Shown: positions 8,498-28,925, counted from the stretch's first letter. The stretch: DNA of 64,000 bases from an uncultured Chloroflexia bacterium (GCA_963778645.1 CAVZVH010000021.1:17191-81190); one strand, 5' to 3'. Made by a program: numbers and translations. Notes: generated from the sequence alone by a model not told the origin.

Positions 8498-10175
<1,678 letters not shown>

Positions 10176-10260
10176 GGGTCAAGGGTAGCGGGCGAGGCGG
10201 ACACGGGGCGGCCCGCGACTCGGCGATGTCAGCGTGACGCCCGCCCGTTAGGCTGGTCGA

Positions 10261-11422
10261 ATGGCGGAGATCGACCTCGGCGCGGCCCCCGATGGTCCGG
10301 GGACGCACGCCCTCGTCATCGGCGTCAGCCACTACCCGAACCTCGCCGGGGACGCCGCCACCGAGGCCGGCCTGCGCTACGGCCTCGAGGACCTGAGCAG
10401 CGCCGCCCGCTCGGCGTCCGAGGTCGTGGCCTGGTTGCTCAACGAGTACCGCAATCCTGGCGCGCCGCTCGCCAGCCTCCGCGTGCTCCTCTCGCCCGCT
10501 GAGGGCGAGACGCTCGCCGACGGCGTCGTCGAGCGCCTGCCCGCGTCATACGCGGCGACTCGAGACGCGGTCGAGGCCGATCTGATGGCCTTCCGGGCCG
10601 CCTGCAGCGAGCGACGCGAGAACGTCGGGTTCGTGTACGTGGCGGGCCACGGCATCCAGCTGACGAAGCGAGGCGCGATCGTCCTCCTCGAGGACTTCGC
10701 CGATCCCGGCCGGGTCGAGCTGTACGGCGCCATCGACATGGTCGGCTGTCACGAAGGGTTCGAGGGCGACGCCTACGCCGCGAACCAGTTCTGGTTCGTC
10801 GACGCGTGCCGCCAACTGCCCGCGATCGCCCGACAATTCGAAGAACTCGAGGCCGGTGTGCTGAGCCTCGCCAAGCCGCCGGGCGAGGTGGAATCGTCAC
10901 CGCTGTTCCTCGCGTCGGCGTCGCGGGATGTCGCCTTTGCCGAGGTCGGCGGCATGACCCTCTTCAGCCAGGCCGTGCTCCGAGGGCTCCGCGGCGCGGC
11001 GGCCGAGGGACCCGAAGATGACCTGAGCCTGGGCTGGCATGTCCCCGCCGGAAAGCTCGGTGATGTCGTGAAGGAGATCGTCGGCAAGCTCGCCGGGGCC
11101 AAGGGCGAGGAGCAATCGGTCCAACCGACCGGATGGGCGGGCCGGGCCGTCGTGCACCAGTTCGAAGGCCCGCCCGATGTCCGCGTCGTCCTCTCGCTCG
11201 AGCCGGATGAGGCGGCGGCGAAGACCAAGGTCTCCTTGCTGTTCGATGCCGACGAGGCCCAGAAGACGGTCGATGGCGCCGCCGAGTGGCCGCTCGAGCG
11301 AACGCTCCCGGCAGGCGCCTACCAGATCAGGGTCGAGACCGAGGCGCCGTATGCGCCGGTGGGCCCCAGGCTGGTGCAAGGTCATGCCGCTCGAGTTCCG
11401 CGACAAGGTCAAGGTGGTCTGA
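10261..11422 (+). CDS. Caspase-like (peptidase C14 / orthocaspase-fold) protein with C-terminal beta-sandwich extension. Apparent -1/+1 frameshift at the C4 run ~11364-11367
   Basis: HALVIGVSHY…FVYVAGHG (His) …FWFVDACRQ (Cys), with dyad spacing ~48 aa as in caspases/metacaspases. GC3 analysis shows the true frame switches near 11365 and ends at TGA 11420-11422 (…PLEFRDKVKVV*). Confidence 0.65.
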
Positions 11423-11843
11423 TGGCCCAGGGCAAGCTCCTGATCTCGTTCAAGAGCAGTTCCTTCTTCCTTGGCCAGAACCTGCCCGTGGAGGTCCGCG
11501 ACGCGAGCAACAAGCTGGTCACCCGATCGGCCGGACCGGTCGCCGTGGACCTGCCAGCGGGGCTCTACGTCGTGGAGGCGACGCTCCCCGGCGGCAGCCG
11601 GCTCTCGGAGGTGGTGGCGGTCGCGGCTGGTCCGCCGACCCAGCTGGTGCTCAGTGGCAAGAAGGGTGGGGCGGCCGCGTCGAAGACGACGACGACGCTG
11701 CCGAGGAGGTCGCGGTCGGGGGATCGCCGGTCGGGGAGGCGGCGGACCGGGAGGATATGCCCCCGGCCGAGCTCGTCGACCACCATGCGGTCGAGCTGCT
11801 GGAGCAGCGCGGCTCCACCTGGATCTTCGACACCACGCTCTGA
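11422..11843 (+). CDS. Hypothetical beta-rich protein with acidic C-terminal tail. Start ATG overlaps upstream stop (TGATG). A second frameshift lies in a GAC-repeat/G5 region ~11680-11722
   Basis: MAQGKLLISFKSSSFFLGQNLPVEVRD…LPAGLYVVEATLPGG repeats the LPAGxYxxxE motif found in the C-terminus of the caspase-like protein. High-GC3 frame ends …ELVDHHAVELLEQRGSTWIFDTTL* at 11843. May be one polypeptide with 10261..11422 if the stop is an indel artefact. Confidence 0.45.
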
Positions 11844-11856
11844 GCCGGATGAGACG

Positions 11857-12477
11857 CCGGTGGCGACGTTCGTGGTCGACGGCACGAGGATCAGCACGTC
11901 GCTGCCCGTGAACCCGAGAGGCAAGCCCGAGGAGCGACCGTGCACCGTCACGTTCCTGCGGCGAGCGGGGAGGATCCGCGTCGACGTCGGGTTCGTCCGC
12001 CAGCGGCGTGTGGCGTGGACGCTGGAGGGCATGGTCAAGTCGGACGACTCGGTTTCGACCGCGGAACTGTTCAACAACGCCGACTACGTCCTGTTCGAGA
12101 AGTACCAGGATCCGCCGGCCGCGGCGCTCGGCGGACTCACGTTGCATCGCATCGGCCGCCTGCGCGAGCGACACGCCTGGATCGAGAACCTCGCGCGGGA
12201 CTTCCGCTGGGTGGCCGACGGGCGCGTGCTCCTGGCGGCGCTTCTGTCGACCAGCGAGGCCCCCGCAGAGCGCGCTCGCGGCCTCGCCGAGCTGCTCGAG
12301 GTCGCGCCACAGCGACCGCTGTTCACCGACGGCCTGGCCCTCATGGTCAAGCTCCTCCGCACCTGGCCCGACGAGGCCGGCAAGGACGAGCGGCGCGCGG
12401 CGTTATCGGTCATCACCTCTGATCCGGCGACGGTCGACTGGGACGCGATGACCCTGACGAAGTACGACGAGGGCTGA
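11857..12477 (+). CDS. Hypothetical helical protein (206 aa, GTG start), no recognisable domain
   Basis: High GC3 frame, 14 bp after previous stop, GGATGAG upstream. …FRWVADGRVLLAALLSTSEAPAERARGLAELLEV…. Confidence 0.5.
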   Translation, partial: PVATFVVDGTRISTSLPVNPRGKPEERPCTVTFLRRAGRIRVDVGFVRQRRVAWTLEGMVKSDDSVSTAELFNNADYVLFEKYQDPPAAALGGLTLHRIGRLRERHAWIENLARDFRWVADGRVLLAALLSTSEAPAERARGLAELLEVAPQRPLFTDGLALMVKLLRTWPDEAGKDERRAALSVITSDPATVDWDAMTLTKYDEG

Positions 12478-12479
12478 GC

Positions 12480-13587
12480 GTGCCGCTCGAGCTCCGGTTC
12501 CTCCCGGCCAGGGAGGGCGACGCGATCTGGGTCCGCTGGGGCGACGGCCTCGATCACCAGCTCATCATCGACATGGGCAAGGAGAGCACGGGCAACGCGA
12601 TCCGCGGGCGGCTCGAAGCTCTCGAGACGAAGGATCGGCATTTCGAGCTGCTGGTCGTGACCCACATCGACGGCGACCACATCGGCGGCGTGCTCACGGC
12701 TCTCGCGGATGCCCCACCGCTGGATGAGCTGACCTTCGGCGACATCTGGTTCAACGGTTGGGCGCATCTGCACGGCAAGTCGGTGCCGCGGCCAGGGGAG
12801 GGGACGGGGCTCGAACCGATGGGTGCCGCCCAGGGCGAGCGACTCACCTCCTGGCTCAACGTGCCGTGGAACGAGGCGTTCGGGCGCGGACCGATCCGGC
12901 GGGAGGATCCGCTGCGGACGGTCAAGCTCTCGGACGAGCTCACGCTGACGGTCCTGGGCCCGACGACCGAGCGGTTGGAGCAGCTGCAGGACACGTGGGA
13001 GGAGGAGGTCCACCTCGCGATCGAGCGGGGCACGCTCACCGAGGTCTCTCCGGGACTGGAGGCGATGGGTCGGCGCCGACCGGACAAGCCCGAGCTTCCG
13101 ACCAAGGGCGACCTGCACGTGCTCGCCGACGAGGTGTCGAGGCCCGATCCGTCGCTGTCGAATGGCACCAGCATCACGCTGCTCCTCGAGTGGCGGAAGC
13201 GGCGGGTGCTGCTCACGGGCGACGCGTGGGCCGCCGATGTGGTCGACGGCCTCGCGCGTCTGGGTGAGCCGGCTCCGGTCCCGATCGACGTCTTCAAGCT
13301 GCCGCACCACGGCAGCGAGGGGAACGTGTCGAATGCGCTCGTGGCCGCCGTGGCGTGTCCGGCATGGGTGTTCTCGACCGATGGCAGCCGCCACTATCAC
13401 CCGGACGCCGCCGCGGTGGCTCGCGTCGTTCGCCATCCGATGGATCCTCGGCCCAGGCTCCTGTTCAACGTCCCGAGCGACTTCAACGAGTGGTGGTCCG
13501 ACAGGGACTGGAAGGACAGAGTTCGGCTACTCGACCGAGACCGGAACGGACGAAGATGGCCTGACGGTCACCCTCGAGCCAGGCTGA
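12480..13587 (+). CDS. MBL-fold metallo-hydrolase (ComEC/Rec2-type beta-lactamase domain). Apparent +1 frameshift ~13520-13530; annotated ORF runs to 13640
   Basis: VVTHIDGDHIGG and KLPHHGSEGN motifs. GTG start 2 bp after the upstream stop. GC3 indicates the true C-terminus is …EFGYSTETGTDEDGLTVTLEPG* (13587). Confidence 0.65.
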
Positions 13588-14257
13588 CGGTTGGTTCCAC
13601 CGTCCCTATGCATCCGACATGCATACCGACCGCAGGGTGACCTCTGGGACCGAAATCGTGCATAAACCCGCGACGCTCCGGATCGCTCGTCAGGGACGCC
13701 GGTTCGTACTCCAGCAACACGCTCCCCGACGCGAACGTCCGGGTGCCGATCAGCTTCAACTCCAGAGGCCGGTGAAGTGACCCGAAGATCGCCTTGCCCT
13801 TGCCGAGCGCGGTGCTCGTGACGAGGAACCGGTACGTGTCGATCAGGCCGGCCTCGCTCAGGGTCGCAAGCAGGTCGGCGCCGCACCCAAGCTGGAGGTC
13901 GGCGCCGTCCGCCTCCTTCAGCCGGCGGACCGCGTCGATGACATCGCCCTCGAGCACCGTCGCGTTCGGCCGCAGCTCGGGCTGCCCGCGCGACACCACG
14001 AACTTCGGCGTCTCCCGCCAGAACTGGGCGAACTCGCGCTCCACCTCGGACGTCGCCGGATCGTCGATATCGAGGTCGTCCCAGTAGTCCATGACGTCGT
14101 ACATGACCCGGCCCATGACGGCGCCGCCGGCGTCACGAGTGAGGTCGTTGGCGAACCGATGCTCGTCCTCGGCCGGGTCGTAGTGCCCGAGGCCGCCGTC
14201 CGGGTCGGAGTACAGCCCGTCAGTCGTGAGGATGATGTAGAAGTTCAGCCGTCGCAT
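13568..14257 (-). CDS. Dihydrofolate reductase family protein (RibD C-terminal-like)
   Basis: MRRLNFYIILTTDG…LQLGCGADLLATLSEAGLIDTYRFLVTSTALGKGKAIF. Typical of the YwjB/RibD_C family. Confidence 0.7.
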   Translation of the reverse strand: MRRLNFYIILTTDGLYSDPDGGLGHYDPAEDEHRFANDLTRDAGGAVMGRVMYDVMDYWDDLDIDDPATSEVEREFAQFWRETPKFVVSRGQPELRPNATVLEGDVIDAVRRLKEADGADLQLGCGADLLATLSEAGLIDTYRFLVTSTALGKGKAIFGSLHRPLELKLIGTRTFASGSVLLEYEPASLTSDPERRGFMHDFGPRGHPAVGMHVGCIGTVEPTVSLARG

Positions 14258-15848: not shown

Positions 15849-16095
15849 CGATCTCGACGCTGAGCTCTATCGCGCCGTCAAGGTGGAAGCCGCCCGATCG
15901 GACCGGAGCGTGCGAGACGTCGTGGACGAGGCGCTCGAGGCCTGGCTCGATGCCACGGAGGCAAGCGAGGATCGCGCGTCCGCGGAAGCGGCGCTCGCGG
16001 AATACCGACGGGAGGGCGGGGAGTCGGCGGCGTCCGTCTTCGGGTCGTTGGCCGCCGAGACCCAAGCCACGTATGGCCCGGACGAGCGTGAGTGA
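15835..16095 (+). CDS. Type II antitoxin, ribbon-helix-helix (CopG/RHH) family
   Basis: MKVTIDLDAELYRAVKVEAARSDRSVRDVVDEALEAWL. Stop overlaps the start of the downstream toxin gene. Confidence 0.75.
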   Translation: MKVTIDLDAELYRAVKVEAARSDRSVRDVVDEALEAWLDATEASEDRASAEAALAEYRREGGESAASVFGSLAAETQATYGPDERE

Positions 16096-16366
16096 GGGCC
16101 GCCTCAAGGTCGAGCTCGCGCCAGCCGCGCAACGTCAGCTCCGCCGCCTTCCGCCGGGCGACGCCGCGCGACTTCGGGGCCCGATCCTCGCCTTGGCGAT
16201 CGATCCGCGGCCGCCCGGCGTCATCAAGCTCGCAGGCACCGATTTCTGGCGCCTACGCGTCGGCGACCTGCGGATCGTCTATCTGGTCGATGACGGGGAA
16301 GGGCTCGTCATCGTCCTCAAGGTCGCCCGACGCTCCGAGAGCACGTATCGCCGGGTCGAGCGGTGA
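16089..16366 (+). CDS. Type II toxin, RelE/ParE family (GTG start overlapping antitoxin stop)
   Basis: …[35 protein letters not shown]… typical RelE/ParE C-terminal block. Confidence 0.75.
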
Positions 16367-19680: not shown

Positions 19681-19752
19681 AGGATGTCGCGAGTCGGCCG
19701 GCCCGGTCGATGTGGCGGGCCACCTCTGGGGCGAGGTCGGCGTAAGCTCGAT

Positions 19753-21405
19753 CGCGTGACCGTTCTCGATGCCCTCGAAGCCGGTCGGGAGGCCTTCCAG
19801 GTGCGGGCCTGGGGCAAGGCGTACGCCCAGCTGTCGGCGGCCGACACACTCGAGCCGCTCGGGTTCGACGACCTCGTGCGCCTCGCCCAGGCCGCCGAGC
19901 TGATCGGCCGCCACGAGGACACAGACGAGCTGGCGGAGCGCGCCTACCGGGAAGGGCTTCGGGTGCGAGACCTGCCGGGCGCGGCGCGAGCGGCGTTCTG
20001 GCTCGGCTTCGGGCTCATCGCCCGCGGAGAGTTCGCGCGCGGCGGCGGCTGGGTCGCACGCGCCACTCGACTCATCGAGGAGGAGGGACTCGACACGGTC
20101 GAGGCTGGCTATGTCCTGCTGCCCGGCGCCATTCGGGGGATCGATGAAGGCCGGCCGGCCGAGTCGCTGGCGGCCTTCGAGGAGGCCTCCCGGATCGCCG
20201 CGCGCTTCGACGACCCTGACCTCGCGACCCTGGGACGGCTCGGCCAAGGGTCGGCGCTGGTGAATCTGGGCGAGATCGATCGCGGCGTGGCCTTCCTCGA
20301 CGAGGCGATGGTCGCCGTCACCGCGGACGAGGTCTCGCCGATCGTCGTCGGGATCGTCTACTGCGCGACGATCGAGACCTGCCAGCAGATCTTCGACCTT
20401 CGGCGCGCACAGGAGTGGACGGCCGCATTCACCCGCTGGACCGAGTCGCAACCCGAACTGATGCCGTTCCGTGGCCGATGCCTGCTGTACCGCGCCGAGC
20501 TGCTCCAGTTCCACGGCGCGTGGAAGGATGCCTTCGCCCAGACGAAGATCGCCTACGACCGGCTGTCGACGCCGCCACCGGAGCCGGCGGTCGCCGAGGC
20601 CCTCTACCAGCAGGGCGAGCTCCACCGGTTGCGAGGGGCGTTCGAGCCGGCCGAGGAGGCATATCGCCAAGCGAGCCAAGGAGGACGCGAGCCTGAGCCG
20701 GGTCGGGCGCTGCTCCGGCTGGCCCAGGGGGATGCCAGTGCCGCGCTGGCGGTCATCCGCCGCGCAGTCGACGAGCGGCAGGATCCATTGATGCGCGCCA
20801 GGCTCCTCGAGCCCTACGTCCAGATCGCCCTCGCAGCCGGCGATCCGTTCGCCGCCCACGTGGCTGCGACGGAGCTCGGCGCCACAGCCGAGTCGTCGCG
20901 CGCGCCGCTGTTGCGCGCGATGGCGGCCCGGGCCCAGGGGTCGGTCGCGCTCGCGGACGGGGAGGCGAACGCGGCCATCGCCATCCTGCGGCGAGCCTGG
21001 ACGTTGTGGCGGGATCTCGAGGCACCGTACGAGGCAGCCCGCGTCCGCGTGCTGATCGGTCAGGCCTGTCGCGCCCTCGGCGACGAGGACACGGCAGCGT
21101 CGGAGTTCGATGCGGCGGGCGATGTCTTCCGCGTCCTCGGCGCCGGGCCCGACCTCGCGCGTGTCGAGGCGATGACGAGGTCGCGTCCCAAGACGGGCGG
21201 CCCAGCCGGGCTCACGGCCCGGGAGGTCGAGGTCCTGCGGCTCGTGGCGGCGGGGAAGAGCAACCGGGCGATCGCGGAGGCCCTCGTCATCAGCGAGAAG
21301 ACCGTGGCTCGGCACGTCAGCAACATCTTCACGAAGCTCGACCTGTCGTCGCGCTCGGCCGCGACCGCCTACGCATACGAGCACGGGATCCGCCCGACTA
21401 CATAG
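19753..21405 (+). CDS. LuxR-family transcriptional regulator with N-terminal TPR/MalT-like helical domain (start uncertain, ORF opens at 19684)
   Basis: C-terminal HTH_LuxR: LTAREVEVLRLVAAGKSNRAIAEALVISEKTVARHVSNIFTKLDL. Confidence 0.75.
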   Translation, partial: RVTVLDALEAGREAFQVRAWGKAYAQLSAADTLEPLGFDDLVRLAQAAELIGRHEDTDELAERAYREGLRVRDLPGAARAAFWLGFGLIARGEFARGGGWVARATRLIEEEGLDTVEAGYVLLPGAIRGIDEGRPAESLAAFEEASRIAARFDDPDLATLGRLGQGSALVNLGEIDRGVAFLDEAMVAVTADEVSPIVVGIVYCATIETCQQIFDLRRAQEWTAAFTRWTESQPELMPFRGRCLLYRAELLQFHGAWKDAFAQTKIAYDRLSTPPPEPAVAEALYQQGELHRLRGAFEPAEEAYRQASQGGREPEPGRALLRLAQGDASAALAVIRRAVDERQDPLMRARLLEPYVQIALAAGDPFAAHVAATELGATAESSRAPLLRAMAARAQGSVALADGEANAAIAILRRAWTLWRDLEAPYEAARVRVLIGQACRALGDEDTAASEFDAAGDVFRVLGAGPDLARVEAMTRSRPKTGGPAGLTAREVEVLRLVAAGKSNRAIAEALVISEKTVARHVSNIFTKLDLSSRSAATAYAYEHGIRPTT

Positions 21406-25198: not shown

Positions 25199-25459
25199 AT
25201 GAGCAGTCGAGTAGGAGAGCGCGGCCAGATCACGATCGAAAAGGCTATCCGCGAAGAGCTCGCGATCTACGCCGGTGACGAAGCGGTCCAGCGTGTCGAG
25301 GATGGCCGCATCGTCATCGAGGTGATCCCAGGTCGGCACCGGCGGTCGATGGCGGGAACACTTCGCGATAAGGTCCGGCGCAGGCCACCGAATGAGTCGT
25401 GGCCGACCCTTCGTGCGGCGGCCTGGGAGACGCCCGATCCGGATCGGTCGGGGTCTTGA
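25199..25459 (+). CDS. Type II antitoxin, AbrB/MazE/SpoVT (VapB-like)
   Basis: MSSRVGERGQITIEKAIREELAI… swapped-hairpin motif. Confidence 0.7.
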   Translation: MSSRVGERGQITIEKAIREELAIYAGDEAVQRVEDGRIVIEVIPGRHRRSMAGTLRDKVRRRPPNESWPTLRAAAWETPDPDRSGS

Positions 25460-25854
25460 TCTCCGCCGATACCTCGGTGCTCGTTCGCTACCTCGTCGGG
25501 ACGCCGGCTGCACAGGCCCGACGGGCAGCCGGCCTGATCGATGATGACGCGGTCGAGATCGGGATCTCGCCGGTCGCGCTGGCGGAGTGCGCGCACGTCT
25601 TGCGCACGCAGTACGAGGTCGAGCAGCCCGACATCATCGATAGCCTCATCGGCCTGATCCAGCGCGAGAACGTCCGCGTGCTCGGCCTTCGGACCGATGT
25701 GCTCGTGGAGATGCTGGTCCGTGCCCGCCATCTGCCCGGCCGTCCGATCCCGGACGCGATGATCGTCGCCGCGGCTGTCGCCGCCGACGCGCTCCCGCTC
25801 GCGACGTTCGATCGCGAACAGCGACGGTACGGGGTCGCCGTCCGCGAACCGTGA
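25399..25854 (+). CDS. PIN-domain ribonuclease toxin VapC (start uncertain: GTG 25399 or TTG 25456 overlapping antitoxin stop)
   Basis: LISADTSVLVRYL (first Asp), …DAMIVAAA…, LATFD C-terminal acidic residue. Confidence 0.7.
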   Translation: MADPSCGGLGDARSGSVGVLISADTSVLVRYLVGTPAAQARRAAGLIDDDAVEIGISPVALAECAHVLRTQYEVEQPDIIDSLIGLIQRENVRVLGLRTDVLVEMLVRARHLPGRPIPDAMIVAAAVAADALPLATFDREQRRYGVAVREP

Positions 25855-27454: not shown

Positions 27455-27694
27455 CCCGCGCGCCGGCTCACCGGCGACGATCGGGCGGCGCGCCTCTCAG
27501 AGCGTTCTCAGGGTCCCGGCCCATCTTGATCCCCGTCCTACCTCCCCGGCGACCCAAGCGCCGGCGAACCGAATGACCCGTCTGACGTCCTCCTCCCGTC
27601 TCCCGCGGTCGACCGGCTCGCCGGTGCTCGCCGTTTCCGGACCCGGGGCCACGCCTCGCTTGACCGACCGGTCGACCACGCCCACCCTTTCACC

Positions 27695-28925
27695 ATGACC
27701 CGACGACCGCCGCTGGTGGCCGCGCTCGCCGTTTCCGTCGTCGTCGCCATCGTCGGCACGGTCGTCCTCGCGAACACGCTGGCCGGCCCGAACGACCAGA
27801 ACAGCCTCGTCCGTGACCCGAATGCCAGCCCCACGACTGGCGCCGAAGCGGGCCCGGCCGGGACGCCGACGCCGGTCCCGACCCCGCGCCCGATTCCGAA
27901 GCACGAGGTCTACGGCTACATCCCGTACTGGGAGATGGACGACGGCATCGCGGCGCACGTGCGCGGCACCGACCTCTCCACCGTCGCGCTGTTCTCCATC
28001 ACGAACAAGCGCAACGGCACCATCGACACCGGCCAGAACGGCTACCGGAAGATCACGGGTCCGATCGGCCGGCGGCTGATCCAGGACGCCCACGACCGCG
28101 AGGCGCGGGTCGAGGTCGTCTACACGAGCTTCGGCTTCGAGCGCAACCAGCGCTTCTTCGGCGGCAAGATCGAAACGCAGGACAAGGTCATCACGGGCCT
28201 GGTGACATTCGCGGAAGAGACCGGAGTCGATGGCATCAACGTCGATGTCGAGCAACTCGAAGGCGAGTTCGTGGCGGCCTACGGCGCGTTCGTCGGACGG
28301 CTGCGGCGACGCGCTCCGGGAGAAGATGCCGAAGGCCCAGGTGTCCGTCGCCACGACGGCCAATATCGGCGGCGCCTCGATGGCCGCGGCAGCCGCAACG
28401 GCCGGTGCGGACCGCATCTTCATGATGGGCTACGACTACCACTGGCCCGGATCCGCGCCCGGGGCCTCGTCGCCGCTGGACCGGCGCGACGGTGACGATC
28501 GCGACCTGATCTGGTCGCTGAACCTCTACGAGCTGCTCGGCGTGCCGGTCGATCGAACCCTGCTCGGCCTGCCGCTCTATGGCATGGTCTGGCCGGTGAC
28601 CGGGCCGGAGCTCGGAGCACCAGAGACCGGTCGCGGCGATGCCTGGTTCCCACGCAAGAACGTCGCCTTCCTGCTCGATCCGGCGTCGGTCCCGACGCGC
28701 GACGCGATCGAAGTCGTCGAGATGTACGCGGAAGAGACAGGGACCGGCGAGCCCGTTGGCTGGGAGGCGATCTACGTCGACTCGCCTGGAACGCTGACGC
28801 CGAAGCTCGCGCTTGCCGACGATCGCGGCCTGGCGGGCGCAGGGTTCTGGGCCATCGGCTACGAGCGCGGCCTGCCCGAGTACACGAAGCTCATCAACCG
28901 ATTCCATGCTGGCGAACTCGACTAG
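27695..28925 (+). CDS. Glycoside hydrolase family 18 (chitinase-like), N-terminal membrane anchor. Apparent frameshift ~28295-28315 (split into ORFs 27695..28495 and 28230..28925)
   Basis: DGINVDVEQLEG (DxxDxDxE) and MMGYDYHWPGS GH18 blocks. Confidence 0.75.

What the first reader, a model, noticed from the sequence alone, without database searches (positions are those of the whole stretch)
10261..13587. Tightly coupled operon: caspase-like protease + beta-rich acidic protein + unknown helical protein + ComEC-type MBL hydrolase
Four co-directional genes are spaced in a way that suggests translational coupling: TGATG overlap, then a 14-bp gap, then a 2-bp gap. They sit between housekeeping ettA and a convergent DHFR-like gene.

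Gene 1 has the caspase/metacaspase His-Cys dyad context (FVYVAGHG … FWFVDACRQ) followed by a beta-sandwich-like region. Gene 2 repeats the LPAGxY(V/I)xxE motif from gene 1's C-terminus and ends in an Asp/Glu-rich tail. Gene 3 (206 aa) has no recognisable motif. Gene 4 carries the HxDxDHxGG and PHHGS motifs of ComEC/Rec2-type MBL nucleases or hydrolases.

Prokaryotic caspase-like proteases commonly act as effectors or activators in conflict systems (CHAT/type III CRISPR, gasdermin operons, CBASS-like). I do not recognise this particular combination with an MBL-fold partner as a named system. It is therefore a candidate uncharacterised protease-plus-hydrolase module, possibly defense or regulated-cell-death related.

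Caveat: genes 1/2 and gene 4 each carry apparent single-base frameshifts, so gene 1 and gene 2 may really be one ~525-aa protein.
Basis: partly seen in the sequence, partly recalled or inferred. Interest (0 to 1): 0.85.

Follow-up and report, generated by a model that had tools for sequence, protein, structure and literature searches.

The report
CanABC caspase-activated nuclease defence operon
This stretch encodes a three-gene "canu" (CanABC) anti-phage module, in which a caspase-like protease with a partner protein switches on a DNA-cutting enzyme; the system was described experimentally in 2025, so this is a new, frameshift-riddled copy of a known kind.

Summary
The genes are real, but there are three, not four. 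Four single-base indels in the assembly produce the apparent extra gene.

- **canA** (10261-11422): caspase plus an Ig-like domain, 386 aa.
- **canB** (11422-12477): about 352 aa.
- **canC** (12480-13587): MBL-fold nuclease, about 369 aa.

All three are full-length homologues, in the same order, of Klebsiella aerogenes CanA, CanB and CanC. That is the "canu" caspase-nuclease defence system of Tuck et al., Science 2025 (PMC12799240). BLASTP gives 38% identity (E 1e-73), 28% (5e-35) and 43% (5e-102).

The residues tested in that paper are conserved here: the caspase Cys, the nuclease His, and both gating-loop glycines in LExMG motifs.

The triad is conserved in 15 of 16 species-representative genomes from several phyla, always with different flanking genes.

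The most likely mechanism is by orthology. A CanA-CanB complex senses infection and cleaves two loops thought to block the CanC active site. That releases a non-specific DNase and causes abortive infection.

"Unnamed system", "four genes" and "gene 1+2 fusion" were not. The frameshifts look like long-read assembly errors, but real decay is not excluded.

The parts
10176..10260 (.). Divergent intergenic region between ettA (- strand) and canA; presumed promoter and RBS of the operon
   Evidence: ORF map. No sigma-70 consensus site or intrinsic terminator was found anywhere in 10100-13800. The promoter is therefore inferred, not shown.
10261..11422 (+). canA: caspase-family (C14) protease with a C-terminal Ig-like/transthyretin-like beta-sandwich; 386 aa after repair of one indel
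   Evidence: - Pfam C14: 27.3 bits, above the cut-off.
- More than 200 homologues of 380-390 aa.
- 38% identity to KaeCanA, E 1e-73.
- AF2 model: pLDDT 92.8.
10648..10650 (+). Codon of CanA catalytic His130 (YVAGHG)
   Evidence: Invariant in 60 homologues; position.
10807..10809 (+). Codon of CanA catalytic Cys183 (FWFVDACRQ)
   Evidence: Aligns with KaeCanA C187, whose C187A mutant abolishes defence (PMC12799240 section 8 and Table S1). Invariant in homologues.
11371..11381 (+). Indel 1: 1-bp frameshift in the last 15 codons of canA (frame 0 to +1)
   Evidence: The +1 frame reads VMPLEFRDKVKVV*, matching the homologue end VMPLEFTYKVKVP.
11422..12477 (+). canB: two beta-sandwich domains, a disordered acidic linker and a TPR-like helical domain (Pfam PF27295 Y4kD_C); about 352 aa.
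   Evidence: - 28% identity to KaeCanB over its full length, E 5e-35.
- AF2 model: pLDDT 90.1.
11656..11690 (+). Indel 2: frameshift inside canB (frame 0 to +2), in a G-rich run
   Evidence: Three-frame translation and GC3 switch. The codon HMM places the switch at 11664.
11826..11845 (+). Indel 3: compensating frameshift inside canB (frame +2 back to 0).
   Evidence: The +2 frame 'VELLEQRGSTWIFD' matches the homologue 'VELLEH..QHGSTWTFD'. Frame 0 'EPDETPVATF' then matches 'DPTETPMARF'.
12480..13587 (+). canC: MBL-fold (ComEC-like) pro-nuclease, about 369 aa after repair of one indel
   Evidence: - Pfam Lactamase_B.
- PADLOC: LmuA 5e-60, Avs1a 2e-42, RTasMBL 1e-35.
- 43% identity to KaeCanC, E 5e-102.
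- The only PDB relatives by sequence are ComEC MBL domains.
12660..12680 (+). CanC metal-binding motif THIDGDH (residues 61-67)
   Evidence: In the 16-sequence CanC alignment the motif reads TH[IV]DxDH. T, H, D, D and H are invariant; the third and fifth positions vary (I/V, and G/A/R/T/I/S).
12810..12824 (+). Gating loop 1 motif LEPMG (G115), the equivalent of KaeCanC G104
   Evidence: Aligned with the KaeCanC LEGLG motif, which carries G104. The G104K mutant loses defence (PMC12799240).
13056..13070 (+). Gating loop 2 motif LEAMG (G197), the equivalent of KaeCanC G189
   Evidence: The Gly is invariant in all 16 CanC sequences. Kae G189K loses defence.
13305..13310 (+). CanC His276-His277 (PHHGS)
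   Evidence: The first His aligns with the His replaced in the KaeCanC 'H271A' dead mutant.
13512..13522 (+). Indel 4: 1-bp frameshift in the last ~25 codons of canC (frame +2 to 0). The true stop is TGA 13585-13587.
   Evidence: Frame 0 '(E)FGYSTETGTDEDGLTVTLEPG*' matches the homologue ends 'FGYTTTYGVEDDGVTVALS'. The HMM places the switch at 13516.

Best explanation
The locus is a stand-alone canABC ('canu', caspase-nuclease) anti-phage operon.

**Inferred mechanism** (by orthology to K. aerogenes CanABC):
1. CanA is a MALT1-like caspase with a C-terminal Ig-like domain. It forms a complex with CanB, which has two Ig-like beta-sandwiches and a TPR-like helical domain.
2. On infection, this complex becomes active. 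In T4 the trigger genetically involves the Dda helicase.
3. CanA then cuts the CanC MBL-fold pro-nuclease at two conserved LExMG-containing loops thought to block its active site.
4. Freed CanC degrades DNA indiscriminately. This arrests or kills the infected cell.

**Shown here:** gene structure, orthology of all three proteins, conservation of every residue tested in the model system, the caspase and Ig/TPR folds, and conservation of the triad across phyla.

**Inferred:** complex formation, cleavage, DNase activity, the defence phenotype, and a sensor or regulator role for CanB.

The four frame-breaking indels are most likely long-read assembly errors.
For: - **Orthology.** BLASTP of the window proteins against Kae proteins taken from Table S1 of PMC12799240:
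  - CanA: 38% identity, E 1e-73.
  - CanB: 28% identity, E 5e-35, end to end.
  - CanC: 43% identity, E 5e-102.
  - The gene order A-B-C is the same.
- **Functional residues conserved.**
  - CanA C183 corresponds to Kae C187.
  - CanC G115 and G197 correspond to Kae G104 and G189.
  - PHH corresponds to the His mutated in the Kae 'H271A' construct.
- **Folds.**
  - The CanB model (pLDDT 90.1) consists of CnaB/transthyretin-like sandwiches plus a TPR-like domain, with no enzyme fold.
- **Co-occurrence.** 15 of 16 species-representative loci found with CanB carry canA-canB-canC in the same order. They come from Actinomycetota, Chloroflexota, Acidobacteriota and Pseudomonadota. Thiodiazotropha also has the triad. 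Flanking genes differ everywhere.
- **Defence-effector family.** CanC hits the LmuA, Avs1a and DRT MBL nuclease models.
- **Published experiments on KaeCanABC** (PMC12799240):
  - defence against T4;
  - loss of defence on mutation of the caspase Cys, the nuclease His or either Gly;
  - CanA-CanB co-purification;
  - CanAB-dependent conversion of CanC into a nuclease.
- **Indels as artefacts.**
  - ettA is also split.
  - A crude codon HMM flags about 10 further stop-less frame switches elsewhere in the window. One of these (31003) is an ordinary junction between adjacent cytochrome bd oxidase subunit genes, not a frameshift.
  - Two assemblies of the same populations differ by 1-bp indels in C/G runs that break canB or canC.
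Against: - As assembled, all three genes are frame-broken: 4 indels in 3.3 kb. That is denser than the rough window average of about 1 per 6 kb, so real pseudogenisation cannot be excluded.
- The closest relative (79% CanA identity, locus L001/L014) lacks canC entirely.
- No activity, complex or phage phenotype was tested for this copy.
- The locus is not in a recognisable defence island. PADLOC found no convincing defence gene among 10 flanking proteins; the one hit was a short C-terminal match to a CARF3 model in the 550-aa product of 19743-21393.
- No CanB relative was found in IMG/VR viral contigs or, at E 1e-5, in plasmids.
- No promoter-like or terminator-like site was found.
- Occlusion of the CanC active site by the two loops was not modelled here.
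Confidence: 0.85

Rival explanations
1. The locus is a decaying, non-functional canABC remnant. On this reading the four frameshifts are genuine mutations that have inactivated a costly abortive-infection system.
For: - There are four frame-breaking indels in 3.3 kb, affecting all three genes.
- The nearest relative has already lost canC.
- Several other long genes in the window are intact: cytochrome bd oxidase subunits I and II, the GGDEF-EAL gene, the solute-binding protein gene and the ADP-ribosylglycohydrolase gene.
Against: - ettA, a conserved housekeeping gene, is broken in the same way.
- About 10 other stop-less frame switches occur elsewhere in the window, one of them (31003) being an ordinary gene junction.
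- By the same HMM criterion, 2 switches are seen in this locus against about 0.5 expected. That is not significant.
- After repair there are no in-frame stops, the codon bias is fully coding-like (GC3 0.85-0.95), and every catalytic and cleavage-site residue is intact.
- Related MAG assemblies of the same populations disagree by 1-bp indels in homopolymers.
Confidence: 0.12
2. The MBL gene is a stray component of a known trypsin-MBL system (AVAST type 1, Lamassu, Hachiman HamMAB or DRT UG9), and the caspase gene is merely adjacent.
For: CanC hits PADLOC LmuA (5e-60), Avs1a (2e-42) and RTasMBL (1e-35), and NCBIfam Avs1a (191.5 bits).
Against: - The NCBIfam Avs1a score is far below its cut-off of 420.
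- No trypsin-like protease, STAND NTPase, SMC/LmuB, HamAB helicase or reverse transcriptase was found in the flanks.
- The caspase and canB are co-inherited with the MBL gene in 15 of 16 genomes.
- CanC is closer to KaeCanC, at 43% identity over its full length.
Confidence: 0.02
3. The module has a non-defence role. One example is a ComEC-like DNA-uptake or turnover nuclease matured by a protease. Another is a caspase-driven developmental cell-death pathway unrelated to phages.
For: - The only solved relatives of CanC by sequence are ComEC MBL domains.
- The locus sits among metabolic and housekeeping genes rather than in a defence island.
Against: - TIGR00361 ComEC_Rec2 scores 27.5 bits against a cut-off of 190, and CanC has no membrane competence domain.
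- The orthologous K. aerogenes operon protects against T4, and that protection needs both catalytic sites (PMC12799240).
- The patchy distribution across phyla, with unrelated flanks, is typical of mobile defence cassettes.
Confidence: 0.03

Closest known systems
Canu / CanABC caspase-nuclease defence system (Klebsiella aerogenes KaeCanABC; Tuck et al., Science 2025, PMC12799240)
   Same: - Three genes in the same order and tightly coupled.
- CanA is a MALT1-like caspase with a C-terminal Ig-like domain.
- CanB is a full-length homologue.
- CanC is an MBL pro-nuclease with two loops that carry the conserved Gly cut-site motifs.
- The catalytic Cys and His residues are conserved.
   Different: - Identity is only 28-43%.
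- The host is a high-GC soil-type organism (GC about 0.69) rather than an enterobacterium.
- CanB carries a longer acidic disordered linker.
- The locus is not in an obvious defence island.
- As assembled, it carries four frameshifts.
- It is untested experimentally.
Trypsin-MBL nuclease-protease pairs in AVAST type 1 (Avs1a), Hachiman HamMAB, Lamassu and DRT UG9
   Same: The pro-nuclease belongs to the same MBL (ComEC-like) family and follows the same logic: a gated nuclease released by a partner protease (PMC12799240; bioRxiv 10.1101/2025.09.03.673762).
   Different: - In those systems the protease is trypsin-like and fused to the sensor (STAND, HamA or LmuA), and the nuclease gene lies upstream.
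- Here the protease is a separate caspase, the nuclease gene lies downstream, and no NTPase, helicase or SMC sensor is present.
Human paracaspase MALT1, and caspase-activated DNase (CAD/ICAD)
   Different: - The nuclease is unrelated: MBL fold here, against the beta-beta-alpha-Me fold of CAD.
- Activation is by removal of internal loops rather than by cleavage of a separate inhibitor.
- The cut-site motif is LExMG rather than P1 Arg or Asp.
Rhizobial plasmid caspase / Y4kD-like / MBL triads (e.g. Sinorhizobium americanum CCGM7 plasmid B)
   Same: The three-gene architecture is the same. The MBL gene is 37% identical to KaeCanC (E 7e-73). The C-terminal domain of the middle protein matches CanB (E 4e-8).
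   Different: The caspase and middle protein are much more diverged. The middle protein is longer (404 aa). The locus is plasmid-borne, next to patatin and EEP nuclease genes.

Membership tests
Canu (CanABC) | canA encodes a caspase-family protease with a His-Cys dyad and a C-terminal Ig-like domain, homologous to KaeCanA | tested here: met
   - Pfam C14 scores above its cut-off.
- 38% identity to KaeCanA, E 1e-73; C183 aligns with C187.
Canu (CanABC) | canB, a KaeCanB homologue, is encoded between the caspase and nuclease genes | tested here: met
   28% identity, E 5e-35, over 346 of 352 residues. Homologues carry Pfam PF27295 Y4kD_C.
Canu (CanABC) | canC encodes an MBL-fold nuclease downstream of the caspase gene, homologous to KaeCanC, with an intact metal and catalytic site | tested here: met
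   43% identity, E 5e-102. The THIDGDH, GDA, PHHGS and HPD motifs are conserved.
Canu (CanABC) | Two gating insertions carry the conserved glycine cut sites (Kae G104 and G189) | tested here: met
   LEPMG (G115) and LEAMG (G197) align with the Kae sites. The second Gly is invariant in 16 of 16 sequences and the first is present in 14 of 16. Physical occlusion of the active site was not modelled.
Canu (CanABC) | The three genes are co-inherited as one co-directional unit | tested here: met
   15 of 16 genome loci have A-B-C in the same order with gaps of -4 to about +45 nt. The Thiodiazotropha locus L003 and the metagenome contig L005 (Logan, ERR11523665) also carry A-B-C.
Canu (CanABC) | The CanA-CanB complex cleaves CanC into an active DNase, and the system protects against phage | not testable with these tools
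   Shown only for KaeCanABC (PMC12799240).
Canu (CanABC) | Intact open reading frames, i.e. a functional copy | tested here: inconclusive
   Four 1-bp indels break the frames. The pattern across the window and in sister assemblies points to assembly error, but no reads are available to check.
AVAST type 1 (Avs1a/b/c) | An Avs1a equivalog score, plus a trypsin-like Avs1b and a STAND Avs1c next to it | tested here: not met
   NCBIfam Avs1a scores 191.5 bits against a cut-off of 420. No trypsin or STAND gene is in the flanks.
Lamassu (LmuA-hydrolase type) | LmuB (SMC-like ATPase) and LmuC partner genes | tested here: not met
   Only the nuclease hits an LmuA model. PADLOC and Pfam found no SMC/LmuB in the neighbouring genes.
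ComEC/Rec2 competence protein | A full-length ComEC with a membrane competence domain, scoring above the TIGR00361 cut-off | tested here: not met
   27.5 bits against a cut-off of 190; only the MBL domain aligns.

The most novel reading that the evidence does not exclude
The most novel reading has three parts.
- CanB (Pfam Y4kD_C), with two Ig-like sandwiches and a TPR-like solenoid, is the actual infection sensor. It would dock on the homologous Ig-like domain of CanA.
- The conserved LExMG loop motif defines a caspase specificity that is neither P1-Asp nor P1-Arg.
- CanAB pairs that lack CanC, as in the nearest relative, act on other substrates. The protease-sensor pair would then be a portable module with exchangeable effectors.
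Probability: 0.25. Interest if true: 0.5.

Novelty: new member of a known kind. Interest (0 to 1): 0.3.

Why it matters
- It shows that the recently described caspase-activated nuclease (canu) immune module exists, with every functionally tested residue conserved, in high-GC environmental bacteria far from the enterobacterial model. In 15 of 16 genomes from several phyla it is a fixed three-gene cassette.
- It adds a domain-level description of CanB, the least understood component: Ig-like, linker, Ig-like, TPR-like. It also links the Pfam family Y4kD_C to CanB.
- On the practical side, it shows how 1-bp indels in long-read MAGs can turn three genes into an apparent four-gene 'novel' operon.

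Tried and rejected
Rejected from homologue lengths and alignments.
- **Looking up the window's own 738-aa ORF call (P0001).** Not on record in the contig index, so the source organism was not identified.
- **Literature search for 'Y4kD'.** Returned only an unrelated paper.
- **Other 2025-26 discovery papers.** The NAR 2026 domain-centric paper (PMC13069673) and the trypsin-MBL bioRxiv preprint (10.1101/2025.09.03.673762) were checked and do not describe a caspase-MBL system. A third paper that turned up in the search (bioRxiv 10.1101/2025.09.30.679545) was not opened.
- **CanB against plasmids (tblastn).** No hit at E 1e-5.
- **CanB patterns in IMG/VR viral contigs.** No relatives found.
- **Sequence search of PDB.** Nothing for CanA or CanB.
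- **Promoter and terminator consensus scan.** Nothing found.
- **Overlapping long ORF pairs elsewhere as evidence of frameshifts.** Most turned out to be ordinary adjacent genes: the cytochrome bd oxidase subunit I/II pair, and the solute-binding protein and ADP-ribosylglycohydrolase genes. This approach was replaced by a codon-HMM frame-switch scan.
- **afdb50 fold search for CanB.** The library was unavailable.
- **AVAST, Lamassu and ComEC membership.** Considered and rejected (see membership test).
Full report
**1. What is in the sequence**

Between 10261 and 13587 the + strand carries continuous coding signal, with GC3 of 0.85-0.95 in the coding frame. On one side lies a divergent ettA-type ABC-F gene, itself split into two ORFs at 8498-8884 and 8904-10175. 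On the other lies a convergent RibD_C (DHFR-like) gene.

The mechanical ORF list shows one 738-aa ORF (10261-12477) followed by a 386-aa ORF (12480-13640). The coding frame, however, changes inside these ORFs.

**2. Gene structure: three genes and four indels**

- *canA.* A search with the frame-0 product returned over 200 homologues. Nearly all are 380-390 aa and cover only the first ~78% of the query. The C-terminus of the homologues (…VMPLEFTYKVKVP) matches the window's +1 frame (…VMPLEFRDKVKVV*), which ends at the TGA of TGATG at 11420. So canA is 10261-11422, with a 1-bp indel near 11371-11381.
- *canB.* In related loci the next gene is a single protein of 338-373 aa carrying Pfam PF27295 (Y4kD_C).
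  - The window's frame 0 from the ATG at 11422 to the stop at 12475-12477 is open. Between about 11665 and 11840, though, the real coding frame is +2. There 'VELLEQRGSTWIFD' matches the homologue 'VELLEH…QHGSTWTFD'.
- This means two compensating indels.
- *canC.* It starts at the GTG at 12480, 2 bp after the canB stop. An indel lies near 13512-13522. After repair its end, '…FGYSTETGTDEDGLTVTLEPG*' (stop 13585-13587), aligns with homologue ends.

**3. Are the indels real?**

Several observations point to assembly error:
- ettA is broken in the same way.
- A crude codon-usage HMM flags about 10 further same-strand frame switches with no nearby stop elsewhere in the 64 kb. One of these (31003) is an ordinary gene junction; the GH18 gene at 28292 is a likelier case.
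- Most related genome loci come from 'MFD' MAGs, and several of these also show frame-split hits.
- Where two assemblies of the same population are available (L004/L005 and L001/L002), they differ by single-base indels in C/G runs that break canB or canC in one assembly only.
- After repair, the window genes have no internal stops and keep every key residue.

I therefore favour assembly error. Four indels in 3.3 kb is still on the high side, so genuine decay remains possible (about 12%).

**4. What the proteins are**

- *CanA.*
  - It passes the Pfam Peptidase_C14 threshold.
  - Its AF2 model has pLDDT 92.8 and pTM 0.92.
  - Its C-terminal ~90 residues form a beta-sandwich that matches CnaB/transthyretin-like domains.
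  - H130 and C183 are invariant in 60 homologues.
- *CanB.*
  - Its AF2 model has pLDDT 90.1 and pTM 0.87.
  - The layout is: beta-sandwich (1-78), disordered acidic linker (82-105), a second beta domain (116-192), and a helical repeat domain (197-333).
- *CanC.*
  - It is an MBL-fold protein whose only solved sequence relatives are ComEC MBL domains.
  - It hits the defence-nuclease models LmuA (5e-60), Avs1a (2e-42) and RTasMBL (1e-35), but falls below the NCBIfam Avs1a cut-off.

**5. Identification with a known system**

A full-text search found Tuck et al., Science 2025 (PMC12799240). That paper describes MBL pro-nucleases activated by partner proteases. It also describes a new 'canu' (caspase-nuclease) system, whose prototype is the three-gene KaeCanABC of Klebsiella aerogenes.

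I took the three protein sequences from Table S1 of the paper and compared them directly with the window proteins:

| Protein | Identity | E-value |
|---|---|---|
| CanA | 38% | 1e-73 |
| CanB | 28% (end to end) | 5e-35 |
| CanC | 43% | 5e-102 |

The residues whose mutation abolished defence in that paper are all conserved here:
- CanA C187 corresponds to C183.
- The CanC His of PHH corresponds to H276.
- The two predicted cut-site glycines, G104 and G189, correspond to G115 in LEPMG and G197 in LEAMG.

**6. Conservation of the module**

A scan of one genome per GTDB species with CanB patterns gave 16 loci. By tblastn, 15 carry canA-canB-canC in the same order and orientation.

The taxa include Nocardioides, Kribbella, Microbacterium, Ilumatobacteraceae, Acidimicrobiia, Chloroflexota, Thermoanaerobaculia, Dechloromonas and a gammaproteobacterium. 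A Thiodiazotropha MAG also has the triad. Flanking genes are unrelated between loci, as expected for a mobile cassette.

The one exception is the closest relative of the window (a Chloroflexia MAG with 79% CanA identity). It has canA-canB but no canC.

In the window itself the neighbours are metabolic or housekeeping genes plus a ParE/RHH toxin-antitoxin pair. PADLOC found no convincing defence gene among ten flanking products; the only hit was a short C-terminal match to a CARF3 model in one of them. No relatives were found in viral contigs.

**7. Mechanism**

By orthology with KaeCanABC, the inferred steps are:
1. CanA and CanB form a complex.
2. An infection cue licenses the protease. [quoted passage not shown]
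3. CanA cleaves the two loops thought to block the CanC active site.
4. Activated CanC degrades DNA non-specifically, giving abortive infection or growth arrest.

All of these steps are inferred for this copy. The paper showed CanAB co-purification and CanAB-dependent nuclease activation for KaeCanABC.

My own added inference is that CanB acts as a scaffold or sensor through its Ig-like and TPR-like domains.

**8. Verdict**

Its functional guess (a protease-plus-hydrolase defence module) is right. Its claim that the combination is unnamed is out of date.

This is a new, untested member of a known kind, possibly not intact. Interest is modest. It extends canu to high-GC environmental lineages, gives a domain picture of CanB, and ties Pfam Y4kD_C to CanB.

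Noticed in passing
L001 8001-10177 (same locus as L014); downstream 10235-11182: The closest relative of the window's system is a Chloroflexia MAG with 79% CanA and 70% CanB identity. It has canA-canB but no canC by tblastn. Two convergent ORFs without Pfam hits (75 and 238 aa) follow instead. This is either loss of the effector or a CanAB pair acting on something else.
   Followed up: partly
L022 4941-8418 (Sinorhizobium americanum CCGM7 plasmid B, NZ_CP013053.1): This conjugative rhizobial plasmid carries a diverged caspase (399 aa), a 404-aa 'hypothetical' protein whose C-terminus matches CanB (E 4e-8), and an MBL gene 37% identical to KaeCanC. The triad sits next to patatin and EEP-nuclease genes. 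It is a diverged canu-like triad, and probably explains why the Pfam CanB domain is named Y4kD_C after pNGR234a y4kD.
   Followed up: partly
window 8498-10175 (- strand): The housekeeping ABC-F gene ettA is split into 423-aa and 128-aa ORFs. The break falls inside its second ABC domain and is a frameshift, most likely an assembly error.
   Followed up: partly
window ~117, 205, 28292, 44460, 45388, 51844, 60661, 60893: A crude codon-usage HMM finds further same-strand coding-frame switches with no stop codon nearby. One example is inside a GH18 gene at 27582-28902. This suggests indel errors are spread along the whole contig.
   Followed up: partly
L004 vs L005; L001 vs L002: Pairs of assemblies of the same populations (ENA MAG contig versus Logan contig) are 99.7-99.95% identical. 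They differ by 1-bp indels in C/G runs, and each such indel breaks canB or canC in one assembly of the pair.
   Followed up: yes
window 15850-16366 (+) and ~25443-25846 (+): A ParE-family toxin with an upstream small RHH-like antitoxin ORF lies 2.3 kb downstream of canC. A PIN/VapC-like ORF lies about 12 kb downstream. These are the only conflict-type genes seen near the locus.
   Followed up: no
PMC12799240 Table S1, KaeCanC rows: In the construct labelled H271A, the substituted His is residue 266 when counted on the listed 355-aa sequence. G104 and G189 count correctly. This is a numbering inconsistency in the source, not in the window.
   Followed up: no
L007 7011-9158: In the Nocardioides MAG locus, the canC ORF runs on to 716 aa. 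The extension is a low-complexity, out-of-frame-looking tail followed by an unrelated domain. It is probably a missing stop or an indel rather than a true fusion.
   Followed up: no
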